Source: an uncultured Pseudomonadales bacterium
GTDB lineage: Bacteria; Patescibacteriota; Microgenomatia; UBA1400; PJMF01
Length of the DNA: 64,000 bases
Assembly: GCA_964574595.1 (NCBI GenBank)
Contig: CAZNOF010000001.1
Span: forward strand, 142,721 to 206,720
Direction: 5' to 3'
In this document: positions 17,812 through 33,091 of the stretch, one piece after another
How positions within the stretch are numbered: position 1 is the first letter of the stretch
Layout of the letters: every line of letters begins with the position of its first letter
Position numbers and translations under genes: made by a program
The notes under the pieces: model-generated
Databases searched by the model: none
What the model was told of the DNA's origin: nothing
Seen by the model: the letters and a program-made list of their open reading frames with translations, nothing else

Positions 17812-18138
17812 ATGAAAAAAATAATTGTTTTCCAATTTTTCGTTTTCTCTTTTTTACTCCTCGCCTCTCCTGTCTTTGCTCAAGCTACCGATATTGCGAA
17901 GGTTCAGAACTTTATTACCAGTATCATCCAATCACTAGTACTCCTCGCAGGAGCATTAGCCTCTGCTTTCTTTGTCTGGGGTGGGATCAGCTATATCACC
18001 AGCTCAGGAAATCCAGAGTCACTTGAAAACGCTAAAAAAACTATTAAGTATTCAGCGATAGGTCTCACTATTTGCTTAGCCGCATTTGTTATTACAAATA
18101 TCGTCACTCAGTTGGCACAGAAAGCATTTGGTCAATGA
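17812..18138 (+). CDS. VirB2/TrbC-like T4SS pilin
   Basis: 108 aa: a signal peptide (SPVFA|QA) followed by two hydrophobic helices separated by a short polar loop, which is the VirB2 topology. Confidence 0.55.
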   Translation: MKKIIVFQFFVFSFLLLASPVFAQATDIAKVQNFITSIIQSLVLLAGALASAFFVWGGISYITSSGNPESLENAKKTIKYSAIGLTICLAAFVITNIVTQLAQKAFGQ

Positions 18139-18154
18139 GTAGAGAACATGAAGC

Positions 18155-19453
18155 ATGCGTCACACCACCGTATTCATCATTTTCATTTTGCTTGCTATAT
18201 TCCTACCGTCGCCTGTTTTTGCTGTTTCCAATAACCTAGAAGTTACACAATTCACCTCATCAACACTCAACACTCTCACTATTCTTGCCTCTTTGGTAGC
18301 CACCTTTTTTCTACTCCAGGGAGGATATCTCTATATCACCTCAGCAGGAAAGCCTGATGCGCTGCAAGCAGCAAAGAAAACAATTCGGAATGCATCGATC
18401 GGATTAGTGTTGGTTCTCTCCGCAAACACAATTACTTCTCTACTCACTGGAGCATTTACGACTCCAAGTATCCCGATAGATGGAAATTCCCTCGCTTTAA
18501 CGCCAATCGAACCCGTGGCTCCAAGTAGCGGGTTGGCTCAAGTGTTAACTGATTCCATCGCCTCTCTACTTCAGAATATTATCCAAAGTGCTACCAAACC
18601 CATTACGGATGCGATTCTTAGCTTTCTCACCATTACCCCCACTCTGGCAACAAACTCCGTAATTTTTAACTTCTGGCTCATTATCGTAGGTATAACCGAC
18701 TCACTCTTTGCACTTCTGATTGCAGTCTTAGGCTTTCAATTTATGAGTGCGTCAACATTTGGATTTGAAGAACTTGAGCTCAAACAATTATTGCCTCGCA
18801 TTGGTCTGGCCTTTTTAGGAGCAAACACATCCATTTTTATCATTGACTGGATTGTGAAGTTGCTCAATGTTCTCGTGTCTGCAATTCTTCATGCCACGGG
18901 AGGACTCAATCAAGTATGGCTTGCCAACGCGTTTAACCCCGCATCACTGTCTACAGATCAAATTGCACTCATCACACTGATCTTTATGATTCTCTTTCTT
19001 ATCCTGGCAGTCGTTCTGCTACTTTTCTATATCACACGCTTAATCGTGATTGCGCTGGGAGCGGTACTTTCTCCATTACTGTTTTTGCTTTGGTCAGTAC
19101 CAAAGTTTGCTGATTTTGCAGAAATCTCAGCCAAGTCGTATCTGGTAACCGTTTTCTCTATCTTCATACACGTTGTCATCATTCAATTGGCTGCTTCATT
19201 TTTAACACTTCCGGGACAGGTGGGAACAAATTCACTGATCTCAATTCTCGTTGGTGTAGGACTCCTTATGACACTCCTGAAAACTCAATCATTTATGATT
19301 CAACTCATGTTTTACAACTCCGGTCGTTCGATGATCAAACGCATTGGTGGGCAGTTGATGAATGTGATGAGTAGTAAGCAATCGGAATCGACTGCGACGC
19401 CATATTTTGCCGATAAATCTATAAAAACTGCGAGAAAGGTTGTGAACGCATGA
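18155..19453 (+). CDS. Pilin-like N-terminal module fused to a VirB6/TrbL-like polytopic membrane domain
   Basis: The first ~100 aa are paralogous to the upstream pilin (SPVFA cleavage site, LAS/LVA helix, YITS[SA]G[NK]P[ED][SA]L..AKKTI). The remaining ~330 aa contain at least five TM helices. Confidence 0.55.
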   Translation: MRHTTVFIIFILLAIFLPSPVFAVSNNLEVTQFTSSTLNTLTILASLVATFFLLQGGYLYITSAGKPDALQAAKKTIRNASIGLVLVLSANTITSLLTGAFTTPSIPIDGNSLALTPIEPVAPSSGLAQVLTDSIASLLQNIIQSATKPITDAILSFLTITPTLATNSVIFNFWLIIVGITDSLFALLIAVLGFQFMSASTFGFEELELKQLLPRIGLAFLGANTSIFIIDWIVKLLNVLVSAILHATGGLNQVWLANAFNPASLSTDQIALITLIFMILFLILAVVLLLFYITRLIVIALGAVLSPLLFLLWSVPKFADFAEISAKSYLVTVFSIFIHVVIIQLAASFLTLPGQVGTNSLISILVGVGLLMTLLKTQSFMIQLMFYNSGRSMIKRIGGQLMNVMSSKQSESTATPYFADKSIKTARKVVNA

Positions 19454-19935
19454 GAACCACTATTATTCCTGCTCAAATTACATCAGTTGAAGATACCATT
19501 GCAGGGAATTTAAACCTGCAACAAATTGTGTTGTTTATTCTTTCCCTTTTTATCAATACCTTTTTGTATGCGCTTCTTCCTATGCGCCTTGCGTTTACGT
19601 TCTACAAAATTCCAATCATGATCGCGGTCTTCGTAGTATGCATTGGTCTATCGCTTCGAATTAAGCAACGGATCGTTCTCGATTGGCTGGTTGTCTTTGT
19701 TCGATATGCCATTCGTCCACATCTGTATTTCTTTAATAAGAATTCGGAAGTTTTCCGATCCATCGTCGTTGAAAAAGTAATTCTCAAACAATCATTCAAA
19801 CAAACTCCTATTCTCGATTACAAGCTAGATCGTCCCAATTCATCCGCCTTCGACTATACATCCCTTTTACGTAATCCATCGCTAAACATCCAGTTCAAAC
19901 GCAATCGTGTTCAGGTAATCAAAAACTATGAGTAG
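19450..19935 (+). CDS. VirB3/PrgI-like small membrane protein
   Basis: 161 aa with two TM helices, immediately upstream of VirB4 and overlapping the previous gene by ATGA. Confidence 0.4.
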   Translation: MRTTIIPAQITSVEDTIAGNLNLQQIVLFILSLFINTFLYALLPMRLAFTFYKIPIMIAVFVVCIGLSLRIKQRIVLDWLVVFVRYAIRPHLYFFNKNSEVFRSIVVEKVILKQSFKQTPILDYKLDRPNSSAFDYTSLLRNPSLNIQFKRNRVQVIKNYE

Positions 19936-20542
19936 ACTCAACAAAGCAGCATCGTCTCGGTCACAGATCAACATCAAAGAAGTCAAAGATGGTGTTCTGG
20001 TTTTGCCTGGAAAAAAGTACCGCATGATTGTTGAGACATCAGCAGTGAACTTTGAATTGAAAAGTGAAGAAGAACAAGATCAAATCATCGACATGTTCCA
20101 AAATTTCTTAAATTCTCTTCCTTGCCCTGTACAAATACTTATACGAACCAGAGAAGTGGATATCGATGGCTATCTTGAGGAGTTTATGCAGCACAAATCT
20201 CAAGAGAAAGAAGTAGTCTACAAGGAACAGATTGATGAATACGCTTTGTTTATTAAGAAACTCATCTCAGGAAACAAAATTCTTTCTCGAAAGTTTTTTA
20301 TCGTCATCCCATATACCTCAGAAAATGGAAAACACGACTTCTCTCTCATTAAAGAACAACTTCAAGTAAGTGTAGATATTATTTCAAAAGGGCTTGAGCG
20401 AATGGGGATGAAGACACGGACACTCGGAAATTTGGAAACGCTCGACCTTTTCTATAGTTTTTATAACCCTGCTCATACAAAATCTCAGCCATTAACTAAA
20501 AAGGCTGTCCAAGCATTACTAGCGGAATCCTATGGAATTTAA
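19928..20542 (+). CDS. VirB4 N-terminal domain as a separate ORF
   Basis: 204 aa. Together with the next ORF (597 aa) the length matches a canonical ~800-aa VirB4/TrsE. The junction is ATGGAATTTAA, i.e. translational coupling in a different frame. Confidence 0.45.
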   Translation: MSRLNKAASSRSQINIKEVKDGVLVLPGKKYRMIVETSAVNFELKSEEEQDQIIDMFQNFLNSLPCPVQILIRTREVDIDGYLEEFMQHKSQEKEVVYKEQIDEYALFIKKLISGNKILSRKFFIVIPYTSENGKHDFSLIKEQLQVSVDIISKGLERMGMKTRTLGNLETLDLFYSFYNPAHTKSQPLTKKAVQALLAESYGI

Positions 20543-22325
20543 ACCAGTTACATATCTGACGAAAAGAATAAAAGCATTTCAAAAGCGAAAAAAAACGCAA
20601 GACAAAGCACGTCAATTTGAATTTGGAACACAAGATCAAGTCGATCTGATTTCCTATGCCAGCTTGAAAGAAACGTCAAACTATATTGAACTCGATGGGA
20701 AAGTCATGCGAACACTTTTTATATCAGGCTACCCGTATGTTGCAACGACTGGCTGGCTCTCAATGCTTACCAACTTCAATCATAACGTCGATATCTCGTA
20801 TCACATTGAACTGGTTGATCCCTTGATTGCACTCCCTAAACTCACTCGAAAAATCACTGAACTTGAATCAACCCGGCGATCCATGCTCACCGAAGGGAAA
20901 ATTATTAGCTCAGAGATCCTTGATCCACTTGAGTCCGCCATGAAACTCAAAGATAGAATTCTACGAGGACAAGAAAAACTTTTCCAGGTCTCCATTTATG
21001 TCACATTGATTGCTGACACGCTTTTGGATCTCAATAAGACGACTACTCTTTTGGAAACCACTCTTGCCACAAAACTGTTCTATACAAAAATTGCCGGATT
21101 CCAGCAGCTTGAAGCATTGCAGTCAATTCTGCCTAGAGGAGAAAATCTATTGGCACAGAAAAGAAACTTAGATAGTTCTTCTGCTGCCCTTACTTTCCCA
21201 TTCACATCCTCGGAACTCGTGCAGGAATCAGGAATTTTGTATGGAATCAACAAATCCAATAATTCCCTTGTCATCATCGATCGATTTTCACTTCACAATG
21301 CGAACAGTATTATCTTTGCCCAATCTGGAAGTGGAAAAAGTTATTCTGCAAAAGTAGAAATTTTACGTCAACTGATGCAGAAGACAAAAGTGATTGTAAT
21401 CGATCCGGAGCGTGAATATAAACAACTGTGCGAATCTCTCAACGGTACATATATCAAATTATCCGTTAATTCCAAAGAAAAGATCAATCCGTTTGATTTC
21501 TCTCTCAATGCCTCTGGTTCGGAAAATAGCCTCGCCGAACATATTCAGGACCTCACCGAGGTAATTTCACTTATGGTTGAGGGTCTTACGGCTCAAGAAA
21601 AAGCAATTCTCGACCGTGCCATCATCCAGACATATAAGGAAGCTGGGTTTTCGCTTCGAGCAGTTCAAAAATCTCGAGGTAAACATGTCTATCCACTCTT
21701 GAAACACTTATATAAAAACCTAAAAGCTGAGGGAGAAAAAGGTTTGACAGCCAGACTAGAAAAATTTGTAACAGGTTCGCTTGCGACCGTGTTTGATAGT
21801 CAGACAAACATTAAACTCGATAATCGCCTGGTTATTTTTGACATAAAAGATCTTCCTGAATCAATTCGAAAGATTATGCTCGTGATCGTGGCAAACTTTG
21901 TCTACAACCAAGTGAAAATAGAGCCTCAAAAACGTTTACTCATAATTGATGAAGGCTGGTTACTCCTGGAACACCAAGAAAGTGCCAGATTTGTGGCTGG
22001 GTTAGCGCGTCGAGCCAGAAAATATTATCTCGGTGTAAGTATCATTACCCAACAAGCCAATGACTTTTTAAACAATGAATATGGTCGAGCGATTGCCTCA
22101 CAGGCCTCTTTGAGGATTCTGATGCGTCAGGACACCACCACCATCGCAGGAGTAGCTCGAGAATTCAAACTCAGTGAATACGAAGAAAAATTCCTACTCA
22201 CCTGTGATCGAGGTGAAGCCATTATCATTGCAGATCAGAATCATGTGGCGATAAAAGTAGTGGCTTCCGAGAAAGAACATCCTTTAATAACCACAGATCC
22301 CAAAGAACTTTTCCAAACCCCATGA
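20532..22325 (+). CDS. VirB4/TraC/TrsE-family T4SS ATPase (C-terminal ATPase portion)
   Basis: Walker A AQSGSGKSY, Walker B LLIIDEGW, plus AGLARRARKY and ITQQ motifs. Confidence 0.8.
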   Translation: MEFKPVTYLTKRIKAFQKRKKTQDKARQFEFGTQDQVDLISYASLKETSNYIELDGKVMRTLFISGYPYVATTGWLSMLTNFNHNVDISYHIELVDPLIALPKLTRKITELESTRRSMLTEGKIISSEILDPLESAMKLKDRILRGQEKLFQVSIYVTLIADTLLDLNKTTTLLETTLATKLFYTKIAGFQQLEALQSILPRGENLLAQKRNLDSSSAALTFPFTSSELVQESGILYGINKSNNSLVIIDRFSLHNANSIIFAQSGSGKSYSAKVEILRQLMQKTKVIVIDPEREYKQLCESLNGTYIKLSVNSKEKINPFDFSLNASGSENSLAEHIQDLTEVISLMVEGLTAQEKAILDRAIIQTYKEAGFSLRAVQKSRGKHVYPLLKHLYKNLKAEGEKGLTARLEKFVTGSLATVFDSQTNIKLDNRLVIFDIKDLPESIRKIMLVIVANFVYNQVKIEPQKRLLIIDEGWLLLEHQESARFVAGLARRARKYYLGVSIITQQANDFLNNEYGRAIASQASLRILMRQDTTTIAGVAREFKLSEYEEKFLLTCDRGEAIIIADQNHVAIKVVASEKEHPLITTDPKELFQTP

Positions 22326-22921
22326 ATCCATTCTTACTCTGGAACATTTTTTCCTTTCGTCATGAAATTAAATATGTTGCCTTAGCTTTCATTCTCATCC
22401 TCTGTTTGCCGTTCATTGCTGTGATCGCCCTCACCCATACAGGAACAGATGTTGTTTCTGATCAATTGGTCAATAGTACACAAAATGAGTCAGTCGAAAT
22501 TAAAAACCCTCTGAATGGAACAATTCTCAAGAAAATAGATGGACCATTCATCTGGCCAATACATGGAAGAATTACTCTTGAATTTGGAGAGTCTGATTTG
22601 CCCTACCAGCCATTTCATACGGGGATAGATATTGCCGGAAAACCTGGAGATCCTGTGATCTCATTTCTTAAAGGTACAGTGATCTATGCTGGAGAACTGT
22701 CTTGGGGATATGGAAAACACATCATCGTTGATAACGGAAACAATGTGACGTCACTCTACGGCCACTTAAGTAAGATTTCAGTCAAAAAAGGGGATGTAGT
22801 CCCTCAAGGACAAATAATTGGATTGAGAGGAAGTACAGGATGGTCAACTGGAGCACACCTTCATTTTGAAACGAGAGTATTTGGAATCCCAGTCAATCCA
22901 AGGGTATTTTTAGGAAAATAG
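22322..22921 (+). CDS. Membrane-anchored M23/LytM peptidase (T4SS-associated wall hydrolase)
   Basis: N-terminal TM helix, HTGIDIAG and HLHFE motifs. Overlaps the VirB4 stop by ATGA. Confidence 0.8.
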   Translation: MNPFLLWNIFSFRHEIKYVALAFILILCLPFIAVIALTHTGTDVVSDQLVNSTQNESVEIKNPLNGTILKKIDGPFIWPIHGRITLEFGESDLPYQPFHTGIDIAGKPGDPVISFLKGTVIYAGELSWGYGKHIIVDNGNNVTSLYGHLSKISVKKGDVVPQGQIIGLRGSTGWSTGAHLHFETRVFGIPVNPRVFLGK

Positions 22922-22927
22922 ATAATC

Positions 22928-24331
22928 CTAATATTTCATATCAACGTAGTAGCCAGTCCTTCCATAGCACGGGTACCCACTTTTAGTTTTATGCGGATTG
23001 AGGCTCCCACTATGTGTAGTTTTCGTAAACCGCTTGCCGCAGGCAGTACATTGATAAATGTATCTTGGTCCAACTGAAACGCTTCTTCTCGTTCTTCCAA
23101 ATCTTGTTCTAGGCGCACTTAATGGTTTGTTTGGATCAAACAGGTGAGGATCTTCTGGCGTTTCTCCTGCCTTAGATAGTTCTATAATAAAACCCTCCCT
23201 GGGTTTGAATTTTTCTTCAGTGTTCTCTATAGATTGAAAGTTCTCCGATACAAAACACCGAACCCCAGGAGCACTTTGTCCACCAGAACAGTTGTATACG
23301 TAAAAATATTCTCGTTCTTGTCCATCTCTTTTTTGGAGGTATTTCAATGAATAAGGCTCGATCATTCGATTTTCTCCTTTATAGCAGACCTTCAAAAGAG
23401 TTTGAGTTCGAGCGGCGTGCATAATTGGATTTCTTAACTCAGGTCCAAAGTATGCAAACTGCGAATACCCATTATCTGGATATACACTGAAGAGTGTCTC
23501 CAAATCTCCTAAGAATGTGGCAATTGCCTCGTCTACACCAAACACAAATTGTTGTGCACACACCAGAGTTTTATCCCAGTATTCTCTAAAGTAATCAAAT
23601 GAAGTTTTGAGTAGGATATTTTTCAATACGTGAGGGTTTTTATCAAATATCGTTTTACGTATTAGCGTTTGGACGACTTCTTCTTTGTTGAGTTGTCCTC
23701 CCAACATTTTTATAGAGTAAGCGTAGTCAAACAGGTCGGGAGCGTGTTGTCGTTGAAGCAAACACTTAAGTTTAGTTGCAATAATCTCTTCTAGCTTCAT
23801 ACATCGTATGTCTGTAGTGAGCTCGCCTGCATCAGAATATGGGTGAATCAATTTTACAGTTTGGATTGGCAAAAGTACTTTATCAAAACGGGTAATATCC
23901 ATTGAAATTCGTATCCTGAAATGCTCAGCATTTCCATAAAAGTCACGAAAGTAGACTCGTGCTTCGTACACTTTCAGTCCGGGGATCGGAGCTTCACTCG
24001 CAGAAAATTTCTCTTCAACTTTATTATCCTCCTTAATAAAAGAGACATGTGCTTTCTCTTGAATAAAATCACAAACATTATTGATCTCTTTTAGCAATAT
24101 TTCCTGTGATATGTCTCCTGGAATACCAAAGTCTAAATCTGCTGAAAAGCGAGTGTTTTCGAAGTAGCCTTTACGGAGAGCGTTGCCTCCTTTTAGAAAA
24201 AGCTCATCTTTGAGGCCACTCACCGTGAAAAAGCCGTGAATTAGCCAGCCAAAAACATAATCCCTCTCCACATTTGACCGATGGATTTCAAATTCGACAG
24301 CTTTGGCATCAATTTCTTCTTTTTTGATCAT
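22928..24331 (-). CDS. AbiEii/DUF1814-like Pol-beta nucleotidyltransferase fused to a WYL-like domain and a C-terminal zinc-finger-like tail
   Basis: NTase motif FLKGGNALRKGYFENTRFSADLDF (hG[GS]...DhD). WYL-like segment RMIEPYSLKYLQKRDGQEREYFYVYN..GVRCFVSENFQSIE. C-terminal YQCTACGKRFTKTTHSGSLNPH (C-x2-C...H...H). Start set at M34 (24331) to avoid overlapping the divergent XRE gene. Confidence 0.55.
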   Translation of the reverse strand: MIKKEEIDAKAVEFEIHRSNVERDYVFGWLIHGFFTVSGLKDELFLKGGNALRKGYFENTRFSADLDFGIPGDISQEILLKEINNVCDFIQEKAHVSFIKEDNKVEEKFSASEAPIPGLKVYEARVYFRDFYGNAEHFRIRISMDITRFDKVLLPIQTVKLIHPYSDAGELTTDIRCMKLEEIIATKLKCLLQRQHAPDLFDYAYSIKMLGGQLNKEEVVQTLIRKTIFDKNPHVLKNILLKTSFDYFREYWDKTLVCAQQFVFGVDEAIATFLGDLETLFSVYPDNGYSQFAYFGPELRNPIMHAARTQTLLKVCYKGENRMIEPYSLKYLQKRDGQEREYFYVYNCSGGQSAPGVRCFVSENFQSIENTEEKFKPREGFIIELSKAGETPEDPHLFDPNKPLSAPRTRFGRTRRSVSVGPRYIYQCTACGKRFTKTTHSGSLNPHKTKSGYPCYGRTGYYVDMKY

Positions 24332-24422
24332 ATCTCGAGTGCAATATCTTTTGGATTGTAGTCCTCTTCCGTAAAAATCTCCAGTGCGCGGAATCTTTCT
24401 TGAATATAGTATAATTTCGAGT

Positions 24423-24632
24423 ATGGCCACTAAGAAAACAGATCAGAACGCTTTTGGAGTGCTTCTGAAAGAAGCGAGAGTAAAACTCGAGCTCACCCAG
24501 ACTCAAGTCGCCGAAAAAGCAGACATGACTAGTACTTACTATGCAATGATCGAACGAGGAGAAGTAAATCCTTCTCTTGAAAAGCTCAAGAGCCTGGCTA
24601 AAGTGCTTAAGATCAAATTGACAATCTCTTAA
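24423..24632 (+). CDS. XRE-family (Cro/CI-type) HTH transcriptional regulator
   Basis: LLKEARVKLELTQTQVAEKADMTSTYYAMIERGEVNPSLEKLKSLAKVL. It is divergent from the NTase-WYL gene. Start taken at the ATG at 24423. Confidence 0.75.
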   Translation: MATKKTDQNAFGVLLKEARVKLELTQTQVAEKADMTSTYYAMIERGEVNPSLEKLKSLAKVLKIKLTIS

Positions 24633-24931
24633 TCTAATTTTCTCTCGGCCAATACTCTTAAAGCAAATTCTCTCATAACGTCTGCCACTTTGATCGCCTG
24701 CTCTATGTTCGCATGATCTGGATCAGTTGTTTCTAGGCACTTCAGTGCGGATTCAATCAATATTTCACGATTGCTTTCACGCATGGCGAACAGTAGTGTT
24801 TCCTCTGAAATAGAATTGTACTTCTCTCCAAAGCGAGCAGATTTCGACAGTTCTAGGATTTCTGTCCAAGGTAACAAGCTCAGGTTAGAGATGCTGTCAT
24901 TTTTAGATTTCATCCCTCGTATTATAGCCAC
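24629..24931 (-). CDS. Small protein of unknown function downstream of the PLD nuclease (possible cognate inhibitor/immunity)
   Basis: 100 aa, 9 nt downstream of the PLD gene on the same strand. No recognisable motifs. Confidence 0.35.
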   Translation of the reverse strand: MAIIRGMKSKNDSISNLSLLPWTEILELSKSARFGEKYNSISEETLLFAMRESNREILIESALKCLETTDPDHANIEQAIKVADVMREFALRVLAERKLD

Positions 24932-24940
24932 TTTCTCAAG

Positions 24941-25381
24941 TTAGAGGAATTTGGAGTATTGGAGAAATTCAAACATCTCATTTGCCTCTTCTTTGTCTTC
25001 AATTCGCATCATGATTTCTCGGCTTTTGCTCTGAGATAGGATATTTAAACTTCCCTCCCAGAGGATCTCCCTGTCGAGAAGAGCTAACTTCCGATGGTGA
25101 TTTCCTGTACACAGAAGTACTTGCACTCCAAGCCTCTCAAACCGTTGGATTTCAGCTTCCGATTGTGGCTCCATTGTTTCTGTATGTTCTCGAGGATCTC
25201 GAGTAAATATATAGACTTTTACGTCTTTCTCAATAAGTAGCTTAAAATAAGGGAAAAGTGTCCTCATTCGTTCGCTTGTAATGAATGGACTTTCAACAAC
25301 GACTTCGCTAGTACAGCGAAGTAAATCTTTCTTGAATTGTTGGTAAAACGTCGTTTCGTCAAACAAAGAGGAGTTATTCAT
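24941..25381 (-). CDS. Single-HKD phospholipase-D-family nuclease (Nuc-like)
   Basis: Perfect HxKx4Dx6GSxN signature: HHRKLALLDREILWEGSLNI. At 146 aa with no signal peptide it matches dimeric single-HKD nucleases. Confidence 0.75.
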   Translation of the reverse strand: MNNSSLFDETTFYQQFKKDLLRCTSEVVVESPFITSERMRTLFPYFKLLIEKDVKVYIFTRDPREHTETMEPQSEAEIQRFERLGVQVLLCTGNHHRKLALLDREILWEGSLNILSQSKSREIMMRIEDKEEANEMFEFLQYSKFL

Positions 25382-27142: not shown

Positions 27143-28066
27143 CTACTCATCTGCCTGCATTTTGTGTAAAAAGTATTTTTCTAAAATGCCCATGTCTTCC
27201 AAGACACTTAGCAGGTGGCGATTGATTTCGGCAAGAGACATTTTGTCTCCACCCTCAACTCCTTCACGTATTTGATTTTGCATGTCTAGCACGTCAAGAT
27301 CATCTACGCTGGCGATTTCAGCTATTAAAGTTGCTAGTTGCTGGTCATTTTGCTGAGTGACTTCGTCATACTCTTGCTGTGTCCAACCTCCTGGGGCGTT
27401 GCTCATCAGAGGCATGAACCTTACTGGCTCAATGTTGATGACACCAAAAGTTCCACCATTTCTAGTTACCTGCATTAGTGTGCAGTGCGCATAATTATCT
27501 CCCATAGGCAGGACCATTTTTCCTCCATTTGGATCAAGTTGTTTCAAGAGCTCAATCGGCATAGAACGAGCGGCCGCCGTGACGATAATTCTTTGAAATG
27601 GGGCGTGGTCAGGCAACCCAACCACTCCATCGCCAACATGAAAGTGAATTGAATCGTTTCCTTGCGTCCGGACAATTGTTTCTGCTCGACGGACAAGCTC
27701 GTCAGAGATATCAGTAGTGTGAACTGTTTCTGCACAATCGGCTAACAAAAGTGCCAGCCAGCCCGAGCCAGTTCCCACCTCAAAAACAGATCCAGTTCCA
27801 TCCAATTCTAAGAAGTCCATCATTCTGGCCACCAGCGAGGGCTGACTCATGGTGGCACCATTGATAGGAATAATGGCATCGGTCCAAATGTGGTCAAGGT
27901 ACTTATCTTCAACAAAAGGTGCACGGCTGCGTCGAGCAATTGCCTGACGGATGAGCTGATTATCAGTATATGGATGGATACTTTTTTCGAGGAAACCTTG
28001 TATCTTCCCTTCCGACTGACGCTCCGCTGTGTTCTGATGGGCTGGTTCTTGTTCTGCTTTTAGCAT
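27143..28066 (-). CDS. Protein-L-isoaspartate O-methyltransferase-like (PIMT) with N- and C-terminal extensions
   Basis: SAM motif VFEVGTGSGWLALLLA and a PIMT-like core. At 307 aa it is about 100 aa longer than canonical Pcm. Confidence 0.6.
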   Translation of the reverse strand: MLKAEQEPAHQNTAERQSEGKIQGFLEKSIHPYTDNQLIRQAIARRSRAPFVEDKYLDHIWTDAIIPINGATMSQPSLVARMMDFLELDGTGSVFEVGTGSGWLALLLADCAETVHTTDISDELVRRAETIVRTQGNDSIHFHVGDGVVGLPDHAPFQRIIVTAAARSMPIELLKQLDPNGGKMVLPMGDNYAHCTLMQVTRNGGTFGVINIEPVRFMPLMSNAPGGWTQQEYDEVTQQNDQQLATLIAEIASVDDLDVLDMQNQIREGVEGGDKMSLAEINRHLLSVLEDMGILEKYFLHKMQADE

Positions 28067-28075
28067 ATCAGCCGA

Positions 28076-30280
28076 TTATATCTCAATGTCATAATCCCAG
28101 TCCCCGCCTTGGTATTTAATCAAATCCTGTCTGAAAAGTGATGGGAACATCGACCAAATAACTGTCAAGTGTTTACGGACATGCTCATCTGGGTCACTGA
28201 TAGCTTGTCTGAGTTCATTTTGGAATTTCTCGGGATCCGAAGCCCAGGTATCAATGATGGTCGCTCGGACCATGACACTTTCCTCTTTTGCGTAGAGATC
28301 TTGCAGTTCCTGTTTGAAATGGGTTGGCAATGATTTCCAGGCTCTGACAACGTTATTGCGAACTAAATCATCTTTATCTTGGACAGCTTCATTCAAAAAG
28401 TCTTTGAAGAAGACAGGATCTCTGACCACCATCTCACTAATCTGATCACGATCTGTTTCATTATTGGTCTCTTTTGCTTTGCGGTACATGTAGATAAGTT
28501 CATCTTTATAGGTATGGATATCTTTTCTAATAATTTCGATAATCGAGTCCTTTTGAAAATTCCCAGAAATTTGCGTCATTAAGCTATTCAGGACATTCTT
28601 TTGGCTTAAATTAGAATAGCTCTGTTGAATCGCCTCAGGGTTGATTGCTCGTAACATCAAGGGATGCTGAAGTGCCTTCAAGGCTGCTAGACGACCCTCT
28701 GGAGTGTGAAGATATTGAACAATGTGGCCAAAGGTGAGCTGATCCAAAGGAATTTGCTGATTTGCTCCCGTGTATACGAGTGCCCCGGGATTTGCAGGGT
28801 TATTGGCGGCTTCGATGTACATGACAATGGCATTGGTAACTGCCTCTGCTGACAGACGATTCTGTGTATCTCCAACCTCAGATGGCACAATTAAGCCGCG
28901 GACCTCCCAGGTCTTAAACCAAATGGATTTCTTAATAGTCTCTTCCTCATTTCCCAGAACCTCACCGATTAATGGTCGAAAGGGATGCTTGGAGAGATCG
29001 AGATGTATGTGCATGCTGGAGAGATGTTCGGCATTATCTCTAAACCAATGAGCTAACTGATTCAGTGATTTAATATACTCAGCGTTAAAATCTAATGCTT
29101 TGGATGATCGTCTCATCTCGGGAATGTCTTCTTTTTGGGTAAGTGGGTTGATATCAAACCCGTCGTCCCATACTTCTGGGATTTCTGTGATTGGAACGTC
29201 TTTTGAGTACTCAAATTCCAGGCCAATCTTCCCAGTAATAGGGGTCAGGGGATCAGTCGGCATGACGACTTGTTTGCTCATTCTTCTCAATTCTGGGTAA
29301 CTGTCAAAAAGTGTTTGGGCATCTTGTTCCATTGCCTTACGAAGTTCGCTATATCTGGCTTGTTGGTCAATCAGCCAAGAAGACTCTGCGGCTTGCGGAT
29401 GAATCATGATTTGACTGGTGAGTTGGAAGGCAAGTGGATGCGAGAGATCTTTCTGTTCATCCATTTTCCAGAGAATATCTTCGTGCTTAGAAGTGGGAAT
29501 CGTGATTTGCTCTAAACAATCATAAATCATGTAACGCAGCTTCTTGTTCAAGTGAGCGTTGTCGATAGCCTTCAGAAGACTGTCAACCAGATCTGGTAAC
29601 TCTGGCAAAAATTCGGTCGGTTTTTTCGTTTCTAATCGATATTTGTGTAAGGCATTTTTGAGGAGCGTGGTTAATGTTTCAGCGCCTTTTGTATCACCTA
29701 GCCCGTCTCTGATGTCTGGATCGGCGGCTGCCTCGGCAATTCTGATGGCGACTGTTTCAAAGGGACCTGGCACGGTGTAAGGATATCCGTCTTTTCCCTG
29801 AAATCTGACATGCTCTTCCCGAAGCAACGCCCGGCGGGATACCTGTTTTTCGTGTTCCGGCTTAATTGTGGCCAGTACGCGGCTAACTTCCTCAGGAATC
29901 TCTTTCACACTATTCGCGCCATAAAATCGCATGACTTCTTGTGCGATAAACGTATTGGGATTGTTGCTGAGAATCAGAATCTCCTGAAGCGGCCGTTTCG
30001 GCTGTTGGGTCTCAAGTTGTTGATTCGCTAATTTTTTCACCATCTCTTCATCTGGAGTCAGAACTCGATTTTCCATGTTGGCTGATTCCGGAACGAACAA
30101 ACCTCGTTGTGCACGGGCAATTTGATCACGACGGGAACTTGGAATAAGTAGACCAGTCTCGGTTTGAGTCAGATCCTCTTGATGAATCTGACCGCGTAGC
30201 TCACTGGGGATTTCTAATTGTGGCTTTTCAATACCTAGGTGTGCTGGTGTGAGGGGTTGTCTATCAATTGACGTATGCAA
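28076..30280 (-). CDS. Large paralog B: conserved GLEFEY...SMHIHLD core plus C-terminal HEAT/PBS-lyase-like repeats
   Basis: 734 aa. Shares N-terminal, central (YTVPGP, IYDCLEQI, GKIGLEFE, PEMRRS, WFRDNAEHLSSMHIHLD) and C-terminal repeat (D..VR...) blocks with the adjacent 777-aa gene. Confidence 0.6.
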   Translation of the reverse strand: MHTSIDRQPLTPAHLGIEKPQLEIPSELRGQIHQEDLTQTETGLLIPSSRRDQIARAQRGLFVPESANMENRVLTPDEEMVKKLANQQLETQQPKRPLQEILILSNNPNTFIAQEVMRFYGANSVKEIPEEVSRVLATIKPEHEKQVSRRALLREEHVRFQGKDGYPYTVPGPFETVAIRIAEAAADPDIRDGLGDTKGAETLTTLLKNALHKYRLETKKPTEFLPELPDLVDSLLKAIDNAHLNKKLRYMIYDCLEQITIPTSKHEDILWKMDEQKDLSHPLAFQLTSQIMIHPQAAESSWLIDQQARYSELRKAMEQDAQTLFDSYPELRRMSKQVVMPTDPLTPITGKIGLEFEYSKDVPITEIPEVWDDGFDINPLTQKEDIPEMRRSSKALDFNAEYIKSLNQLAHWFRDNAEHLSSMHIHLDLSKHPFRPLIGEVLGNEEETIKKSIWFKTWEVRGLIVPSEVGDTQNRLSAEAVTNAIVMYIEAANNPANPGALVYTGANQQIPLDQLTFGHIVQYLHTPEGRLAALKALQHPLMLRAINPEAIQQSYSNLSQKNVLNSLMTQISGNFQKDSIIEIIRKDIHTYKDELIYMYRKAKETNNETDRDQISEMVVRDPVFFKDFLNEAVQDKDDLVRNNVVRAWKSLPTHFKQELQDLYAKEESVMVRATIIDTWASDPEKFQNELRQAISDPDEHVRKHLTVIWSMFPSLFRQDLIKYQGGDWDYDIEI

Positions 30281-30294
30281 AAAGCATACCAGCC

Positions 30295-32628
30295 TTAGTT
30301 ACTTGCTGCCACTGCTCTTTCTGCACGTTCTCTAATGTCTTGATCAGAATCCTGAGAAGCTAATTTTAGCTCATCTTTATAACTTCTTGGTCTCATGGCC
30401 CAAAAATCGACAATGACATTCCGAATTGAATCACCTTGATTTTTGTAGGCATTTAAAATATCGTCCCTGAAAAGGTTTGGTTTCTCCAGCCAAGCTTTCA
30501 CCACCAGCTTTCTAATGTAGGGATCTTTGTCTTGCATGATCTCTTTGAGTTTGTTTTGATTTTTACCAAGATCTTTTACCCAGCCATTTACCACTTCCGC
30601 TCTTACCCGCCAACTGGGATCTGATGCATAGATGTTTTCAAGTTTTTCTCGGTATTTACTCGGATCTGTAGCCCAAAATTTTGCCACAGCGGCTCGGACA
30701 TAGTGATCTTGAAAAGTAGCAAGCTGATCGATAGTCTCGGTAAATTCTGTTGGCTGACTGGTGATGGCTCGCACTAGGTACTCTTTTTCCGACTGCTCAT
30801 TTTCACCTTGCAGATACTCGATGATATTGGGCAGGAAAATGCCTGGTGCTTCATACATCGCTCGTACAAGTGCGAGTTTCTGATAGTTTCCCTCAGCAGA
30901 TTTCTCAAGCGTTTTTAGGGCAATTGGTTTGCTGGCATCATCGAATCCCTGGATCAAAGAGTAGGGATCAATACTTTTAAACATCAACGGATGCTCTAAA
31001 ACCTTTAATAAGGCTAGTCGACCTTCAAGACCATCAAGGTGAGCAGAAACATAAGCAAACGTGAGCTGATCCCAAGTATAATCCCGATCTGATTCAAGGT
31101 GAATTTCTGGTCTGAAATGCTCATCTTCGCGGGCAGCTGCAATGTAGAGTTCAATAGCGCTGACGACGGCCGCTCCGTCAAGACGATTCCGTTGCCGCGT
31201 GTCAAACGGAACCAATAAGCCTCTTATTTCCATCGTGTTGTAATTAATGCCATTTCGGTAGGTCCGATTTGAGTTTCCCAAAATGCCACCTAAATCAGGT
31301 CGAACAGGATGTGTCGTTTTATCAAGATGAATGTGCATGCTTGATAAATGCTGAGCATTATCTCTGAACCAGTCCGACAAATGGCTCACAGAACGAATGT
31401 ACTCAGCATTGTAATGAAGTGCATTAATACTTCTTCTCATTTCAGGAGCGTTTGTACCTTCAGGATTTGATTGAGGGTTGTCCACACCTTCTTCCCAGAC
31501 GTCGCTGATTGGTTGCTCTAGAGGATCTTCTGGTTTGGAGAACTCAAATTCAAGTCCAATCTTCCCTTCTGTGGGATGAAAAACATCACTCGAGACAACA
31601 ATTCGTTTGGCTAGACGCTTGAGCTCAGAATAATGATGCACTAAAGTTGTCGGGTCGTTATTCAAGAGTCCCAGTAACTCAATTCGTCGCTCTTCTTGAG
31701 CTTTCAACCAGGTGGATTCGGCTGCCTGAGGATGGGTCATTATTTCCGTGGTTAACTGAAATGAAAGCGGGTGACTTAAATCTCGATTCGAATCCATTCG
31801 CCATAAGACATCTTCAAGAGTTGATGTGGGAATGTCAATTTGCTCAAGACAGTCATAAATCATAAATCGTAATTTTCGATTCAAGCTTGCCATATCCAGC
31901 GCGGTAATTAACTGATTCACCAGGTCAGGCATTTCGGGTAGGAACTCAACTTTTTCAGGGGTCTTTAATCGATACTTCTTCAATAGCTCCTTGAGAATCA
32001 GCGTTAGCTGTTCAGCTCCTTTGCTATCACCCAGTGCCTCTCTGATAGCTGGGTCTGCAACTGCCTCAGTTATTTTCATTCCCACGTACTCAAGTGGCCC
32101 GGGGACGGTATAGGTATATCCATCTCTACCTTGATACTTCGTGCGTTCTTCTCTTTGAGTAGCTGAAAATGAGGGTTCACCCTTTTCTTCCGGATCGAGG
32201 TCAATTAAGACTTCGCCCACAACTGATGGAAGTTCTTTTGCCGTGTGAACGCCATAATCTTTCAATACTTCTTGAATAACAAATGCTCTTGGGTTGCTCC
32301 CGAGGACAAGGATTTCTCGGATTGGTCGCTGAGGTTTTTCTTCTTCAGTAGACTGCGTGCCAAACTGTTGAATTGCCTCATCATCTGGAGTTAGGATCCT
32401 GTTTCGGTCCATCCGAGCTGATTCTGGAACAAGTACCTGTCGAGAAGCTGACACGAGCTGATCTCGCCGGGATCCTGGCACGAGCAGCCCAGTATTTGTT
32501 TCGGTGAGGTCGTTAGGATTGACTTGGCCGCGCAGCTCATTTGGAATTTCCAATTGAGGTCTTTCTAAGCCGAGATTCGCTGGAAGGATAGGTTCTCTGT
32601 TTGTTGGCGTATGCAAAAAGCATATCAT
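30295..32628 (-). CDS. Large paralog A: same architecture, longer HEAT-repeat tail
   Basis: 777 aa. The C-terminus carries at least five D-x-x-[VI]R-helix repeats (DHYVRAAV, DPSWRVRAEV, DPYIRKLV, GDSIRNVI, DQDIRERA). Confidence 0.6.
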   Translation of the reverse strand: MICFLHTPTNREPILPANLGLERPQLEIPNELRGQVNPNDLTETNTGLLVPGSRRDQLVSASRQVLVPESARMDRNRILTPDDEAIQQFGTQSTEEEKPQRPIREILVLGSNPRAFVIQEVLKDYGVHTAKELPSVVGEVLIDLDPEEKGEPSFSATQREERTKYQGRDGYTYTVPGPLEYVGMKITEAVADPAIREALGDSKGAEQLTLILKELLKKYRLKTPEKVEFLPEMPDLVNQLITALDMASLNRKLRFMIYDCLEQIDIPTSTLEDVLWRMDSNRDLSHPLSFQLTTEIMTHPQAAESTWLKAQEERRIELLGLLNNDPTTLVHHYSELKRLAKRIVVSSDVFHPTEGKIGLEFEFSKPEDPLEQPISDVWEEGVDNPQSNPEGTNAPEMRRSINALHYNAEYIRSVSHLSDWFRDNAQHLSSMHIHLDKTTHPVRPDLGGILGNSNRTYRNGINYNTMEIRGLLVPFDTRQRNRLDGAAVVSAIELYIAAAREDEHFRPEIHLESDRDYTWDQLTFAYVSAHLDGLEGRLALLKVLEHPLMFKSIDPYSLIQGFDDASKPIALKTLEKSAEGNYQKLALVRAMYEAPGIFLPNIIEYLQGENEQSEKEYLVRAITSQPTEFTETIDQLATFQDHYVRAAVAKFWATDPSKYREKLENIYASDPSWRVRAEVVNGWVKDLGKNQNKLKEIMQDKDPYIRKLVVKAWLEKPNLFRDDILNAYKNQGDSIRNVIVDFWAMRPRSYKDELKLASQDSDQDIRERAERAVAASN

Positions 32629-32708: not shown

Positions 32709-32781
32709 GCCGGGATAGCTCAGTTGGTAGAGCGGCGGTATCGTAAACCGTAGGTCGTGGGTCCGATTCCCACTCCCGGCT
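32709..32781 (+). tRNA. tRNA-Thr (anticodon CGT)
   Basis: Folded by hand: acceptor GCCGGGA/TCCCGGC, D-arm GCTC-AGTTGGTA-GAGC, anticodon stem GCGGT/ACCGT with loop ATCGTAA (U33, CGT, A37), T-arm GTGGG-TCCGATT-CCCAC. No CCA is encoded. Confidence 0.85.
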
Positions 32782-32785
32782 CTCT

Positions 32786-33091
32786 ATGGATATTCAAAAA
32801 ATTACAGACGAAGTCGAAAAAACTTCTTTGCTTTACACCAAAAAATTTGAAATTGAGAGAACGCCTGATTGGTTTATTTTGAAGCTTCAAGAAGAGTTGG
32901 GCGAGCTGATTCAGAGTTACTTAATGATGAACGGCCAAGCAAGGAGAAAAGAAAAATCAACTGCAGAGCTAGAGCAAGAGTTCAAGCAAGAAGTTGCTGA
33001 TGTTTTTGCCCACGTTCTTCTCTTGGCTAAACACAATGATATCGATTTAGAAAAAGAAGTAAAAGCCAAGTGGTTAGTTTGGAATAAGTAG
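32786..33091 (+). CDS. MazG-like nucleotide pyrophosphohydrolase (small, all-alpha)
   Basis: EELGELIQ...EVADVFAHVLLLA (EExxE...ExxD pattern). Confidence 0.55.
   Translation: MDIQKITDEVEKTSLLYTKKFEIERTPDWFILKLQEELGELIQSYLMMNGQARRKEKSTAELEQEFKQEVADVFAHVLLLAKHNDIDLEKEVKAKWLVWNK

What the first reader, a model, noticed from the sequence alone, without database searches (positions are those of the whole stretch)
28076..32628. Tandem pair of large paralogs with a conserved ExE / HxH core and C-terminal HEAT repeats next to tRNA-Thr
Two adjacent minus-strand genes (734 and 777 aa) share blocks throughout their length: PANLG(I/L)E(K/R)PQLEIP, YTVPGP, IYDCLEQI.IPTS, GKIGLEFE(Y/F)SK, PEMRRS, NAEYI(K/R)S, and WFRDNA(E/Q)HLSSMHIHLD. 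Their tails contain D..VR-type HEAT/PBS-lyase-like repeats, with more copies in the 777-aa gene. The strictly conserved GLEFE and MHIHLD motifs resemble the metal/ATP-binding E-x-E and H-x-H motifs of glutamine-synthetase-like carboxylate-amine ligases (GCS2/amidoligase). That points to an enzymatic core fused to a protein-interaction scaffold, but the fold assignment is speculative. The pair abuts a tRNA gene and a PIMT-like repair methyltransferase, and both genes begin with the same ATGCTTTTTGCAT hairpin-like sequence.
Basis: partly seen in the sequence, partly recalled or inferred. Interest (0 to 1): 0.65.

Follow-up and report, generated by a model that had tools for sequence, protein, structure and literature searches.

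The report
Tandem amidoligase-like enzymes with HEAT tails
Two neighbouring large genes in what is probably a candidate-phyla-radiation (CPR) bacterium encode an unannotated family whose core is a distant relative of amide-bond-forming (glutamine-synthetase-like) ligases, joined to a helical-repeat tail that probably picks the target; the enzyme fold is well supported, but the substrate is unknown.

Summary
Window 30295-32628(-) and 28076-30280(-) encode 777- and 734-aa paralogs, 45% identical over their full length. They sit between tRNA-Thr(CGT) and a PIMT-like methyltransferase.

- Its top hit among viral structures is a phage "Amidoligase enzyme".
- A profile-profile comparison with Amidoligase_2 (PF12224) proteins gives 94% probability (P 1.4e-7; reversed controls P 0.12-0.16). 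It aligns GxExE, E, HxHxD and ExR in order.

These residues are nearly invariant (61-67 of about 67 sequences; all but the Arg at least 65). The tails are 31-residue HEAT-like repeats, 3 copies against 4-5.

The family has about 65 clusters and no Pfam, NCBIfam or PADLOC model. Every named member comes from Patescibacteria. Its C-terminal tails are hypervariable and it has no conserved gene neighbourhood. A syntenic relative has tRNA-Thr 72 nt from its PIMT gene and lacks the pair, so the pair is accessory and the PIMT link is incidental.

Most likely function: ATP/Mg-dependent carboxylate-amine ligases with tail-directed, probably macromolecular, substrates. This is a new variant of a known kind, of moderate interest.

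The parts
30295..32628 (-). Paralog 1, 777 aa (P0001): low-confidence N-terminal region, helical domain, amidoligase-like core, helical lid, and 4-5 HEAT-like repeats
   Evidence: ORF list; 45% identical to paralog 2; family motifs intact: KIGLEFE / E..RS / HIHLD / TMEIR
28076..30280 (-). Paralog 2, 734 aa (P0002), first in-frame start codon TTG; same architecture with 3 HEAT-like repeats
   Evidence: AlphaFold2 model m0e71df099371 with pLDDT 88.2 and pTM 0.82
28766..29260 (-). Catalytic alpha/beta core of paralog 2 (about residues 341-505). It carries the near-invariant G353, E355, E357, E388, H424, H426, D428, T457, E459 and R461.
31093..31593 (-). Catalytic core of paralog 1 (about residues 346-512), boundaries mapped from the pairwise alignment
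29261..29995 (-). Family-specific helical domain of paralog 2 (about residues 96-340) with conserved PGPxE, YR, PEMPDL, YD..Q and DLxHPLA motifs; no known counterpart was found
29996..30280 (-). N-terminal region of paralog 2 (about 95 aa), predicted with low confidence. It contains the family-wide motif [ST]-G-[LI]-x-[VI]-P (residues about 42-47) and is the segment best conserved between the two paralogs (pN 0.27).
28109..28561 (-). HEAT / PBS-lyase-like helical-repeat tail of paralog 2 (residues about 574-724; three 31-residue D..VR repeats)
30298..30885 (-). HEAT-like tail of paralog 1 (residues about 582-777; four repeats plus a partial fifth)
   Evidence: Pfam HEAT_2 E 3.6e-5; repeat register
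32608..32624 (-). Copy 1 of the 17-nt sequence TATGCTTTTTGCATACG, at the 5' end of paralog 1 and inside the ORF
30272..30288 (-). Copy 2 of the same 17-nt sequence. It spans the TTG start of paralog 2 and can form a 6-bp hairpin.
32709..32782 (+). tRNA-Thr(CGT), divergent from the pair; it marks one edge of the accessory segment
   Evidence: the same tRNA lies 72 nt from the PCMT gene in the syntenic relative L010
27143..28066 (-). PIMT-like methyltransferase, 9 nt downstream of paralog 2. It is probably co-transcribed with the pair, but it is not a conserved partner.
   Evidence: PF01135 E 3e-40; present without the pair in L010; absent from the other family loci

Best explanation
The two genes are lineage-specific tandem duplicates from an undescribed protein family found, wherever the source is named, in Patescibacteria (CPR).

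Architecture: each protein has a conserved but probably disordered N-terminal region with a short [ST]GLx[VI]P motif, then a family-specific helical domain, then a strongly diverged glutamine-synthetase-like / Amidoligase_2-type catalytic domain, then a helical lid, and finally a variable C-terminal module. In these two proteins that module is made of PBS-lyase-type HEAT repeats.

Shown: the fold, the homology to amidoligases, the near-invariance of the catalytic-type residues, the HEAT-like tails, the variability of the tails across the family, and the accessory status of the pair.

Inferred mechanism: the ExE, E, HxHxD and ExR residues are assumed to do what their counterparts do in GS, gamma-glutamylcysteine ligase, YbdK and PafA. 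They would bind Mg2+/ATP, phosphorylate a substrate carboxylate to an acyl-phosphate, and let an amine attack it, giving an amide or isopeptide bond.

Inferred substrate: the catalytic core is constant while the C-terminal solenoid is hypervariable, so the tail most likely selects a macromolecular substrate (a protein, peptide or surface polymer). The two paralogs probably have different targets.
For: - Paralogy: 45% identity over the full length. The two are each other's closest relatives; nothing else exceeds 34%.
- Family: an exhaustive HMMER search found 70 representative clusters at E <= 1e-3. About 65 of them share query residues ~160-570.
- Conservation: G353 67/67, E355 66/67, E357 67/67, E388 65/66, H424, H426 and D428 66/67 each, T457 and E459 65/68 each, R461 61/68.
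- Viral library: BFVD rank 1 is 'Amidoligase enzyme', probability 1.00, with 253 of 265 target residues aligned.
- Profile-profile: against 52 Amidoligase_2 proteins, 94.0% probability, P 1.4e-7, score 58. GKVGxExE aligns with vGIEVELE, W..g.D with W..k.D, E with E, SlHiHLD with StHIHLD, and gTwEvRg with GSVEFRg. Reversed controls give P 0.12-0.16.
- Accessory status: the syntenic locus L010 has the tRNA-Thr 72 nt from PCMT and no family member. Another member is bracketed by rve transposase fragments.
Against: - No biochemical data exist for this family, or (to my knowledge) for Amidoligase_2 itself.
- No Pfam GS-like model detects the core, even at E <= 10.
- Foldseek against the PDB returned only weak helical-repeat hits.
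- The BFVD E-value is only 0.045.
- The hhalign comparison with a single YbdK sequence is not significant (P 0.04).
- ATP binding and the direction of the reaction (ligation or hydrolysis) cannot be read from sequence.
- There is no conserved neighbour to suggest a substrate.
- A macromolecular substrate is inferred from architecture alone.
Confidence: 0.6

Rival explanations
1. The core works in the hydrolytic direction, as a deamidase or isopeptidase. Dop does this relative to PafA, using the same fold and the same nucleotide-dependent active site.
For: PafA (a ligase) and Dop (a hydrolase) share the carboxylate-amine-ligase fold and mechanism, and differ by few substitutions (PMC7947786, found). 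The residues conserved here do not distinguish the two directions.
Against: The closest sequence relatives are Amidoligase_2 proteins, and the closest solved fold is YbdK, which has a reported ligase activity (my own knowledge). No member hits the Pup_ligase Pfam model.
Confidence: 0.12
2. They are small-molecule ligases, for example gamma-glutamyl-type or other amino-acid/amine conjugation for a metabolite. In that case the helical domains serve only for oligomerisation or regulation.
For: The best structural match, YbdK/GCS2, acts on small molecules (activity from my own knowledge). No protein partner or substrate gene is conserved next to the family.
Against: The proteins are 557-1841 aa long, with hypervariable C-terminal solenoids behind an invariant core. 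That is not what a fixed metabolic enzyme would be expected to look like. The gene is accessory: it is absent from a syntenic relative and is scattered among unrelated housekeeping genes in other loci.
Confidence: 0.18
3. They are secreted effectors. They would be exported through the T4SS-like apparatus encoded about 5 kb away and would modify proteins of the host cell on which the CPR bacterium lives. This concerns where the enzyme acts and is compatible with the main explanation.
For: A T4SS-like cluster lies at 17812-22921. The proteins are large, modular and accessory, with eukaryote-like HEAT repeats, hypervariable tails and a conserved low-confidence N-terminal motif. The pair is missing from a close relative.
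Against: There is no Sec signal or transmembrane segment, as read directly from the sequences. None of about 10 other family loci has T4SS genes adjacent. No secretion-signal predictor was available.
Confidence: 0.1
4. The three co-oriented genes (777 aa, 734 aa, PIMT-like) form one pathway that acts on Asp/Glu carboxylates of a protein or RiPP-like peptide, combining ligation with O-methylation or aspartimide chemistry.
For: The gaps between the genes are 14 and 9 nt. The methyltransferase also scores against RiPP-associated PIMT subfamilies TIGR04188 and TIGR04364, although far below their cut-offs. It has unusual extensions and only one full-length relative.
Against: That one relative sits in the same syntenic position, 72 nt from tRNA-Thr, without the pair. 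None of the other family loci has a PCMT neighbour. No precursor-peptide candidate was seen.
Confidence: 0.05

Closest known systems
Amidoligase_2 (Pfam PF12224), the 'putative amidoligase' of phages and conflict systems, e.g. Pseudomonas phage UFV-P2 ORF23
   Same: The ordered motif set is the same: GxExE, W..x.D, E, S-x-H-x-H-L-D, G-(T/S)-x-E-x-R. hhalign gives 94% probability, P 1.4e-7. The top BFVD structural hit is a phage amidoligase.
   Different: The Pfam model does not detect any member. The segment between HxHxD and ExR is much shorter here: about 30 residues against roughly 90 in UFV-P2 ORF23. The domain is embedded in 557-1841-aa proteins, with a family-specific N-terminal helical domain and variable C-terminal solenoids, rather than being a stand-alone protein of about 300-400 aa. 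It is not linked to the GATase, ATP-grasp or COOH-NH2_lig genes seen in phages (one search compared). Amidoligase_2 itself has no solved structure detectable by sequence.
YbdK / GCS2 carboxylate-amine ligase (PF04107; PDB 1r8g, 1tt4)
   Different: Identity is 16%. Sequence-level similarity is not significant (P 0.04). YbdK is a 372-aa single-domain enzyme acting on small molecules, with no helical-repeat extensions.
PafA/Dop (Pup ligase and depupylase) and other glutamine-synthetase-fold enzymes that modify proteins
   Same: This is a functional analogy only: a GS-like carboxylate-amine-ligase fold used on protein substrates (established knowledge; PMC3511204, PMC7947786).
   Different: No member hits the Pup_ligase Pfam model. 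No Pup-like gene or proteasome context is present. Homology was not tested beyond that.
PBS-lyase-type HEAT-repeat proteins (CpcE/F, YibA, deoxyhypusine hydroxylase)
   Different: Here the repeats are an appendage to an enzyme. Pfam HEAT_2 scores fall below the gathering threshold (21.6 and 24.4 against 27.7).

Membership tests
Amidoligase_2 (PF12224) | Match to the Pfam HMM at or above its gathering score | tested here: not met
   There is no hit for either paralog, for excised cores at E <= 10, or for 49 + 2 other members. The reference phage protein passes only narrowly (22.1 against 22 bits).
Amidoligase_2 (PF12224) | Remote homology by profile-profile comparison, with the conserved motifs aligned colinearly | tested here: met
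   hhalign gives 94.0% probability, P 1.4e-7 for the catalytic region and 91.6%, P 8.2e-7 for the whole core. Reversed controls give 0.4-0.5%.
GS-like carboxylate-amine ligase superfamily (GS, GCL, GCS2, Amidoligase_2, Pup ligase) | The characteristic alpha/beta fold of the catalytic domain | tested here: met
GS-like carboxylate-amine ligase superfamily | Acidic/His metal ligands and the catalytic Arg on successive strands (ExE ... E ... H(xH) ... ExR) | tested here: met
   E355, E357, E388, H424, H426, D428 and E459 are present in at least 65 of 66-68 sequences and R461 in 61 of 68. All are present in both window paralogs.
GS-like carboxylate-amine ligase superfamily | ATP- and Mg2+-dependent formation of an acyl-phosphate followed by an amide bond | not testable with these tools
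   This needs an enzyme assay.
GCS2 / YbdK (PF04107) | Pfam HMM match or significant sequence similarity to YbdK | tested here: not met
   There is no Pfam hit. The family profile against YbdK gives P 0.04. The paralog and two family profiles found no GS-like chain among PDB sequences.
Pup ligase / depupylase (PafA, Dop) | Pup_ligase Pfam domain together with a Pup or proteasome context | tested here: not met
   No Pup_ligase hit in any member. No such neighbours.
HEAT / PBS-lyase HEAT-like repeats | Tandem helix-turn-helix repeats of about 30-40 residues forming an alpha-solenoid | tested here: met
HEAT / PBS-lyase HEAT-like repeats | Pfam HEAT_2 or HEAT match at the gathering score | tested here: not met
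   21.6 and 24.4 bits against a cut-off of 27.7. Other family members do pass strongly (best E 1.9e-47).
Protein-L-isoaspartate O-methyltransferase (the neighbouring gene) | PCMT domain; NCBIfam equivalog score | tested here: inconclusive
   PF01135 gives E 3.2e-40, above its gathering score. NF001453 scores 164.4 against a cut-off of 188, and TIGR00080 scores 131.9 against 159. It is a divergent PIMT with extensions.

The most novel reading that the evidence does not exclude
The family could be a CPR-specific protein-conjugation system. In this reading, a GS-fold ligase writes amide or isopeptide marks (amino-acid, polyamine or peptide additions) onto proteins, and its hypervariable C-terminal solenoid chooses the target. 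The two window paralogs would be a diversified pair aimed at different targets, possibly host proteins reached through the nearby T4SS-like apparatus. The conserved N-terminal [ST]GLx[VI]P motif would act as a docking or export signal.
Probability: 0.12. Interest if true: 0.8.

Novelty: new variant of a known kind. Interest (0 to 1): 0.5.

Why it matters
CPR/Patescibacteria genomes are typically small (general knowledge; the source contig here is at least 230 kb), and most of their large proteins have no assigned function. This work gives one such family (about 65 clusters, all called 'hypothetical protein' where named) a testable enzymatic hypothesis.

The family has a fully conserved amide-ligase-type active site attached to interchangeable binding modules. 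It also extends the little-studied Amidoligase_2 branch of the glutamine-synthetase superfamily into a new architecture.

If the substrates are proteins, this would be a new bacterial post-translational modification system. It might also be a tool of the epibiotic lifestyle. If the substrates are small molecules, it is a more ordinary addition to CPR metabolism.

Tried and rejected
- Direct library searches gave nothing on the core: Pfam, NCBIfam, PHROGs and PADLOC scans of both paralogs, excised cores and relatives.
- PDB sequence searches with one paralog (phmmer) and with two family profiles found nothing on the core.
- The first AlphaFold run, with a 4-sequence alignment, was too poor to use (pLDDT 58).
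- Foldseek against the PDB with the full-length model returned only weak helical-repeat hits. The afdb50 library was not available.
- hhalign against single sequences of YbdK and of the phage COOH-NH2_lig protein was not significant.
- No solved Amidoligase_2 structure could be found by sequence.
- dN/dS between the paralogs is uninformative overall, because synonymous sites are saturated (pS 0.79). dN is 0.51, and the estimable segments give rough ratios of 0.24-0.48.
- The promoter/terminator scan did not exceed the shuffled controls.
- No flanking repeats were seen at the junctions of the inserted segment.
- A conserved partner was rejected: neighbours were clustered across about 10 independent loci and none recurs. 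tRNA adjacency was seen clearly in only one other locus.
- The 845-aa neighbour in L006 is not a paralog.
- Exact-sequence look-ups of the window's own proteins found no record, so the organism's name was not recovered.
- The ATP-grasp 'amidoligase' CfmP paper is unrelated.

Full report
**1. The observation**

The window has two adjacent minus-strand ORFs: 30295-32628 (777 aa, ATG start) and 28076-30280 (734 aa, first in-frame start TTG), separated by 14 nt. BLASTP between them gives 333/734 identities (45%), 662 bits and E = 0.0, colinear from residue 1 into the tails. The only slip is PAHLG in the 734-aa protein where PANLG was written. A tRNA-Thr(CGT) lies at 32709-32782(+), divergent from the pair. 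A PCMT-domain methyltransferase (PF01135, E 3e-40) starts 9 nt after the second gene.

The tails carry 31-residue D..(V/I)R..v...W repeats: three in the 734-aa protein, and four plus a partial fifth in the 777-aa protein.

The shared ATGCTTTTTGCAT is real, but its ATG is out of frame in both genes. The identical stretch is 17 nt (TATGCTTTTTGCATACG). It reads C-F-L-H-T in frame, contains the TTG start of the second gene, and is the longest identical run between the two genes (17 nt against 12 for the next). It can form a 5-6 bp hairpin (-4.4 and -8.1 kcal/mol). I treat it as a minor, unexplained detail.

**2. A rare, unannotated family**

Neither protein matches any Pfam, NCBIfam, PHROGs or PADLOC model in its core. 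The only hits are sub-threshold HEAT_2 matches in the tails. PDB sequence searches also found nothing on the core.

A word-indexed search of 5.8 billion clusters found only the two window proteins and two relatives. An exhaustive HMMER search of 1.84 billion representatives found 70 clusters at E <= 1e-3, 31 of them at E <= 1e-30, with lengths of 338-1841 aa. About 65 share query residues ~160-570, and three match only the HEAT tail. Of the 20 clusters looked up, 18 are singletons, and where a name exists it is 'hypothetical protein'. The named sources are Candidatus Levybacteria and a 'Patescibacteria group bacterium'.

In a 69-sequence alignment the near-invariant positions are G353, E355, E357, E388, H424, H426, D428, T457 and E459, with R461 close behind. 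They form the pattern K-x-G-x-E-x-E ... E-x-R/K ... H-x-H-x-D-x3-H ... T-W-E-x-R. Both window paralogs keep all of them.

**3. Fold**

A 4-sequence AlphaFold2 model was poor (pLDDT 58). With the 69-sequence alignment, the 734-aa protein was modelled at pLDDT 88.2 and pTM 0.82, with core blocks at 94-98. The model shows these regions:
- residues 1-95: low confidence
- residues 96-340: a helical domain
- residues ~341-505: an alpha/beta core, in which ExE, E388, HxHxD and ExR lie on successive strands
- residues ~506-573: a helical lid
- residues 574-724: paired-helix repeats

Foldseek against the PDB gave only weak repeat hits. Foldseek against BFVD put 'Amidoligase enzyme [uncultured Caudovirales phage]' first, at probability 1.00 with 253 of 265 target residues aligned, but with E only 0.045.

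**4. Sequence-level test**

I took a published Amidoligase_2 protein, phage UFV-P2 ORF23 (PMC3890496). I collected its homologues, many of which carry PF12224, and ran hhalign locally. The family's catalytic region against 52 amidoligases gives 94.0% probability, P 1.4e-7 and score 58. The whole core gives 91.6% and P 8.2e-7.

The aligned blocks are:
- GKVGxExE with vGIEVELE
- W..g.D with W..k.D
- E388 with the amidoligase E
- SlHiHLD with StHIHLD
- with greedy extension, gTwEvRg with GSVEFRg

Reversed-profile controls give P 0.12-0.16. YbdK as a single sequence is too distant for significance (P 0.04), and the amidoligase profile against YbdK reaches only P 0.006. Its lGIELE, HVHV and GTVEVR motifs still fall opposite the same family motifs in the same order.

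The core is therefore a divergent member of the GS-like carboxylate-amine-ligase superfamily. It is closest to Amidoligase_2, but it is not a member of that Pfam family as the family is defined.

**5. Architecture and genomic behaviour**

Behind the constant core, the C-terminal tails fall into 8 small clusters and about 30 singletons. HEAT-type repeats occur in 8 of 49 scanned members. Nearly all members share a short N-terminal motif, [ST]-G-[LI]-x-[VI]-P. Between the two window paralogs this N-terminal segment is the most conserved part (pN 0.27).

Gene neighbourhoods from about 10 independent loci share no recurring neighbour family, and only the window has a tandem pair.

The PIMT-like neighbour has a single full-length relative (59% identity). 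That relative's contig is syntenic with the window: polysaccharide-synthesis gene, GT2, Wzy_C, Ig-like gene, tRNA-Thr(CGT), PCMT. There, however, the tRNA lies 72 nt from the PCMT start, against 4,643 nt in the window, and no family member occurs in the 20.9 kb examined. The pair is therefore an accessory segment, and its adjacency to PIMT is incidental. Another member is bracketed by rve transposase fragments.

The two paralogs are each other's closest relatives (45%, against at most 34% to any other member). Synonymous sites are saturated (pS 0.79) and dN is 0.51, so this is an old, lineage-specific duplication in which both copies have been maintained.

**6. Mechanism**

Shown: the fold, the homology, the conserved catalytic-type residues, the HEAT-like tails, the modular variability and the accessory status.

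Inferred from established knowledge of GS, gamma-GCS, YbdK and PafA: the ExE, E, H and ExR residues bind Mg2+/ATP and stabilise an acyl-phosphate formed on a substrate carboxylate, which an amine then attacks to give an amide bond.

Inferred from architecture: the variable solenoid selects a macromolecular substrate, and the two paralogs have diverged in target.

Rivals are listed with their tests in the Rival explanations section:
- a Dop-like hydrolytic direction (PMC7947786)
- a small-molecule ligase like YbdK
- export through the T4SS-like system encoded at 17812-22921
- a joint pathway with the PIMT-like enzyme, which the synteny largely refutes

**7. Novelty and verdict**

No library model or paper found here describes this family. 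It is a new variant of a known kind: a known catalytic superfamily in a new, CPR-restricted, multi-domain architecture.

Interest is moderate (0.5). The enzymatic hypothesis is concrete and testable, but the substrate and the biological role remain open.

Noticed in passing
window 17812-22921 (+): A T4SS-like gene cluster: two VirB2/TrbC-type pilin genes, a PrgI-like gene, a split TraC/VirB4-type ATPase (19928-20542 and 20532-22325), and an M23 peptidase.
   Followed up: partly
window 22928-25381 (-): An AbiEii-type nucleotidyltransferase toxin gene (PADLOC AbiEii, E 2e-47), with a 100-aa ORF beside it, at the end where the toxin gene starts (24629-24931). Next to these lies a small PLD-like nuclease gene at 24941-25381. 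This may be a small defence or toxin-antitoxin islet.
   Followed up: partly
window 32786-33091 (+): A 101-aa ORF between tRNA-Thr and the Ig-like gene has no Pfam or PADLOC hit. It is absent from the syntenic relative, where the tRNA and the Ig-like gene are only 39 nt apart. So both sides of the tRNA carry lineage-specific insertions.
   Followed up: partly
window 27143-28066 (-): The PIMT-like methyltransferase has N- and C-terminal extensions; the PCMT core covers about residues 34-223 of 307. It falls below the NCBIfam equivalog cut-offs and has only one full-length relative among 5.8 billion clusters.
   Followed up: partly
window 30272-30288 and 32608-32624 (-): An identical 17-nt stretch, TATGCTTTTTGCATACG, occurs at the 5' ends of both paralogs. 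It is the longest identical run between them and can form a hairpin around the TTG start of the second gene. It could reflect gene conversion or a translation-initiation element.
   Followed up: partly
family alignment A2 (P0039, P0044, P0046, P0047): Four family members have Trp in place of the otherwise conserved Arg of the ExR motif (E-V-W). They may have altered or lost activity.
   Followed up: no
L019 7249-12103: Family member P0039 (1203 aa, strong HEAT_2 hits) is flanked on both sides by rve / rve_2 transposase fragments.
   Followed up: no
L010 1-1519: A 1675-aa alpha-2-macroglobulin-like protein in the syntenic relative also carries Hint/intein-type Pfam hits.
   Followed up: no
L005 7970-9026: In the Levybacteria locus, DsbA-like thioredoxin and MsrB genes lie just downstream of the family gene. 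Together with the PIMT gene in the window this hints at a protein-repair theme, but it does not recur in other loci.
   Followed up: partly
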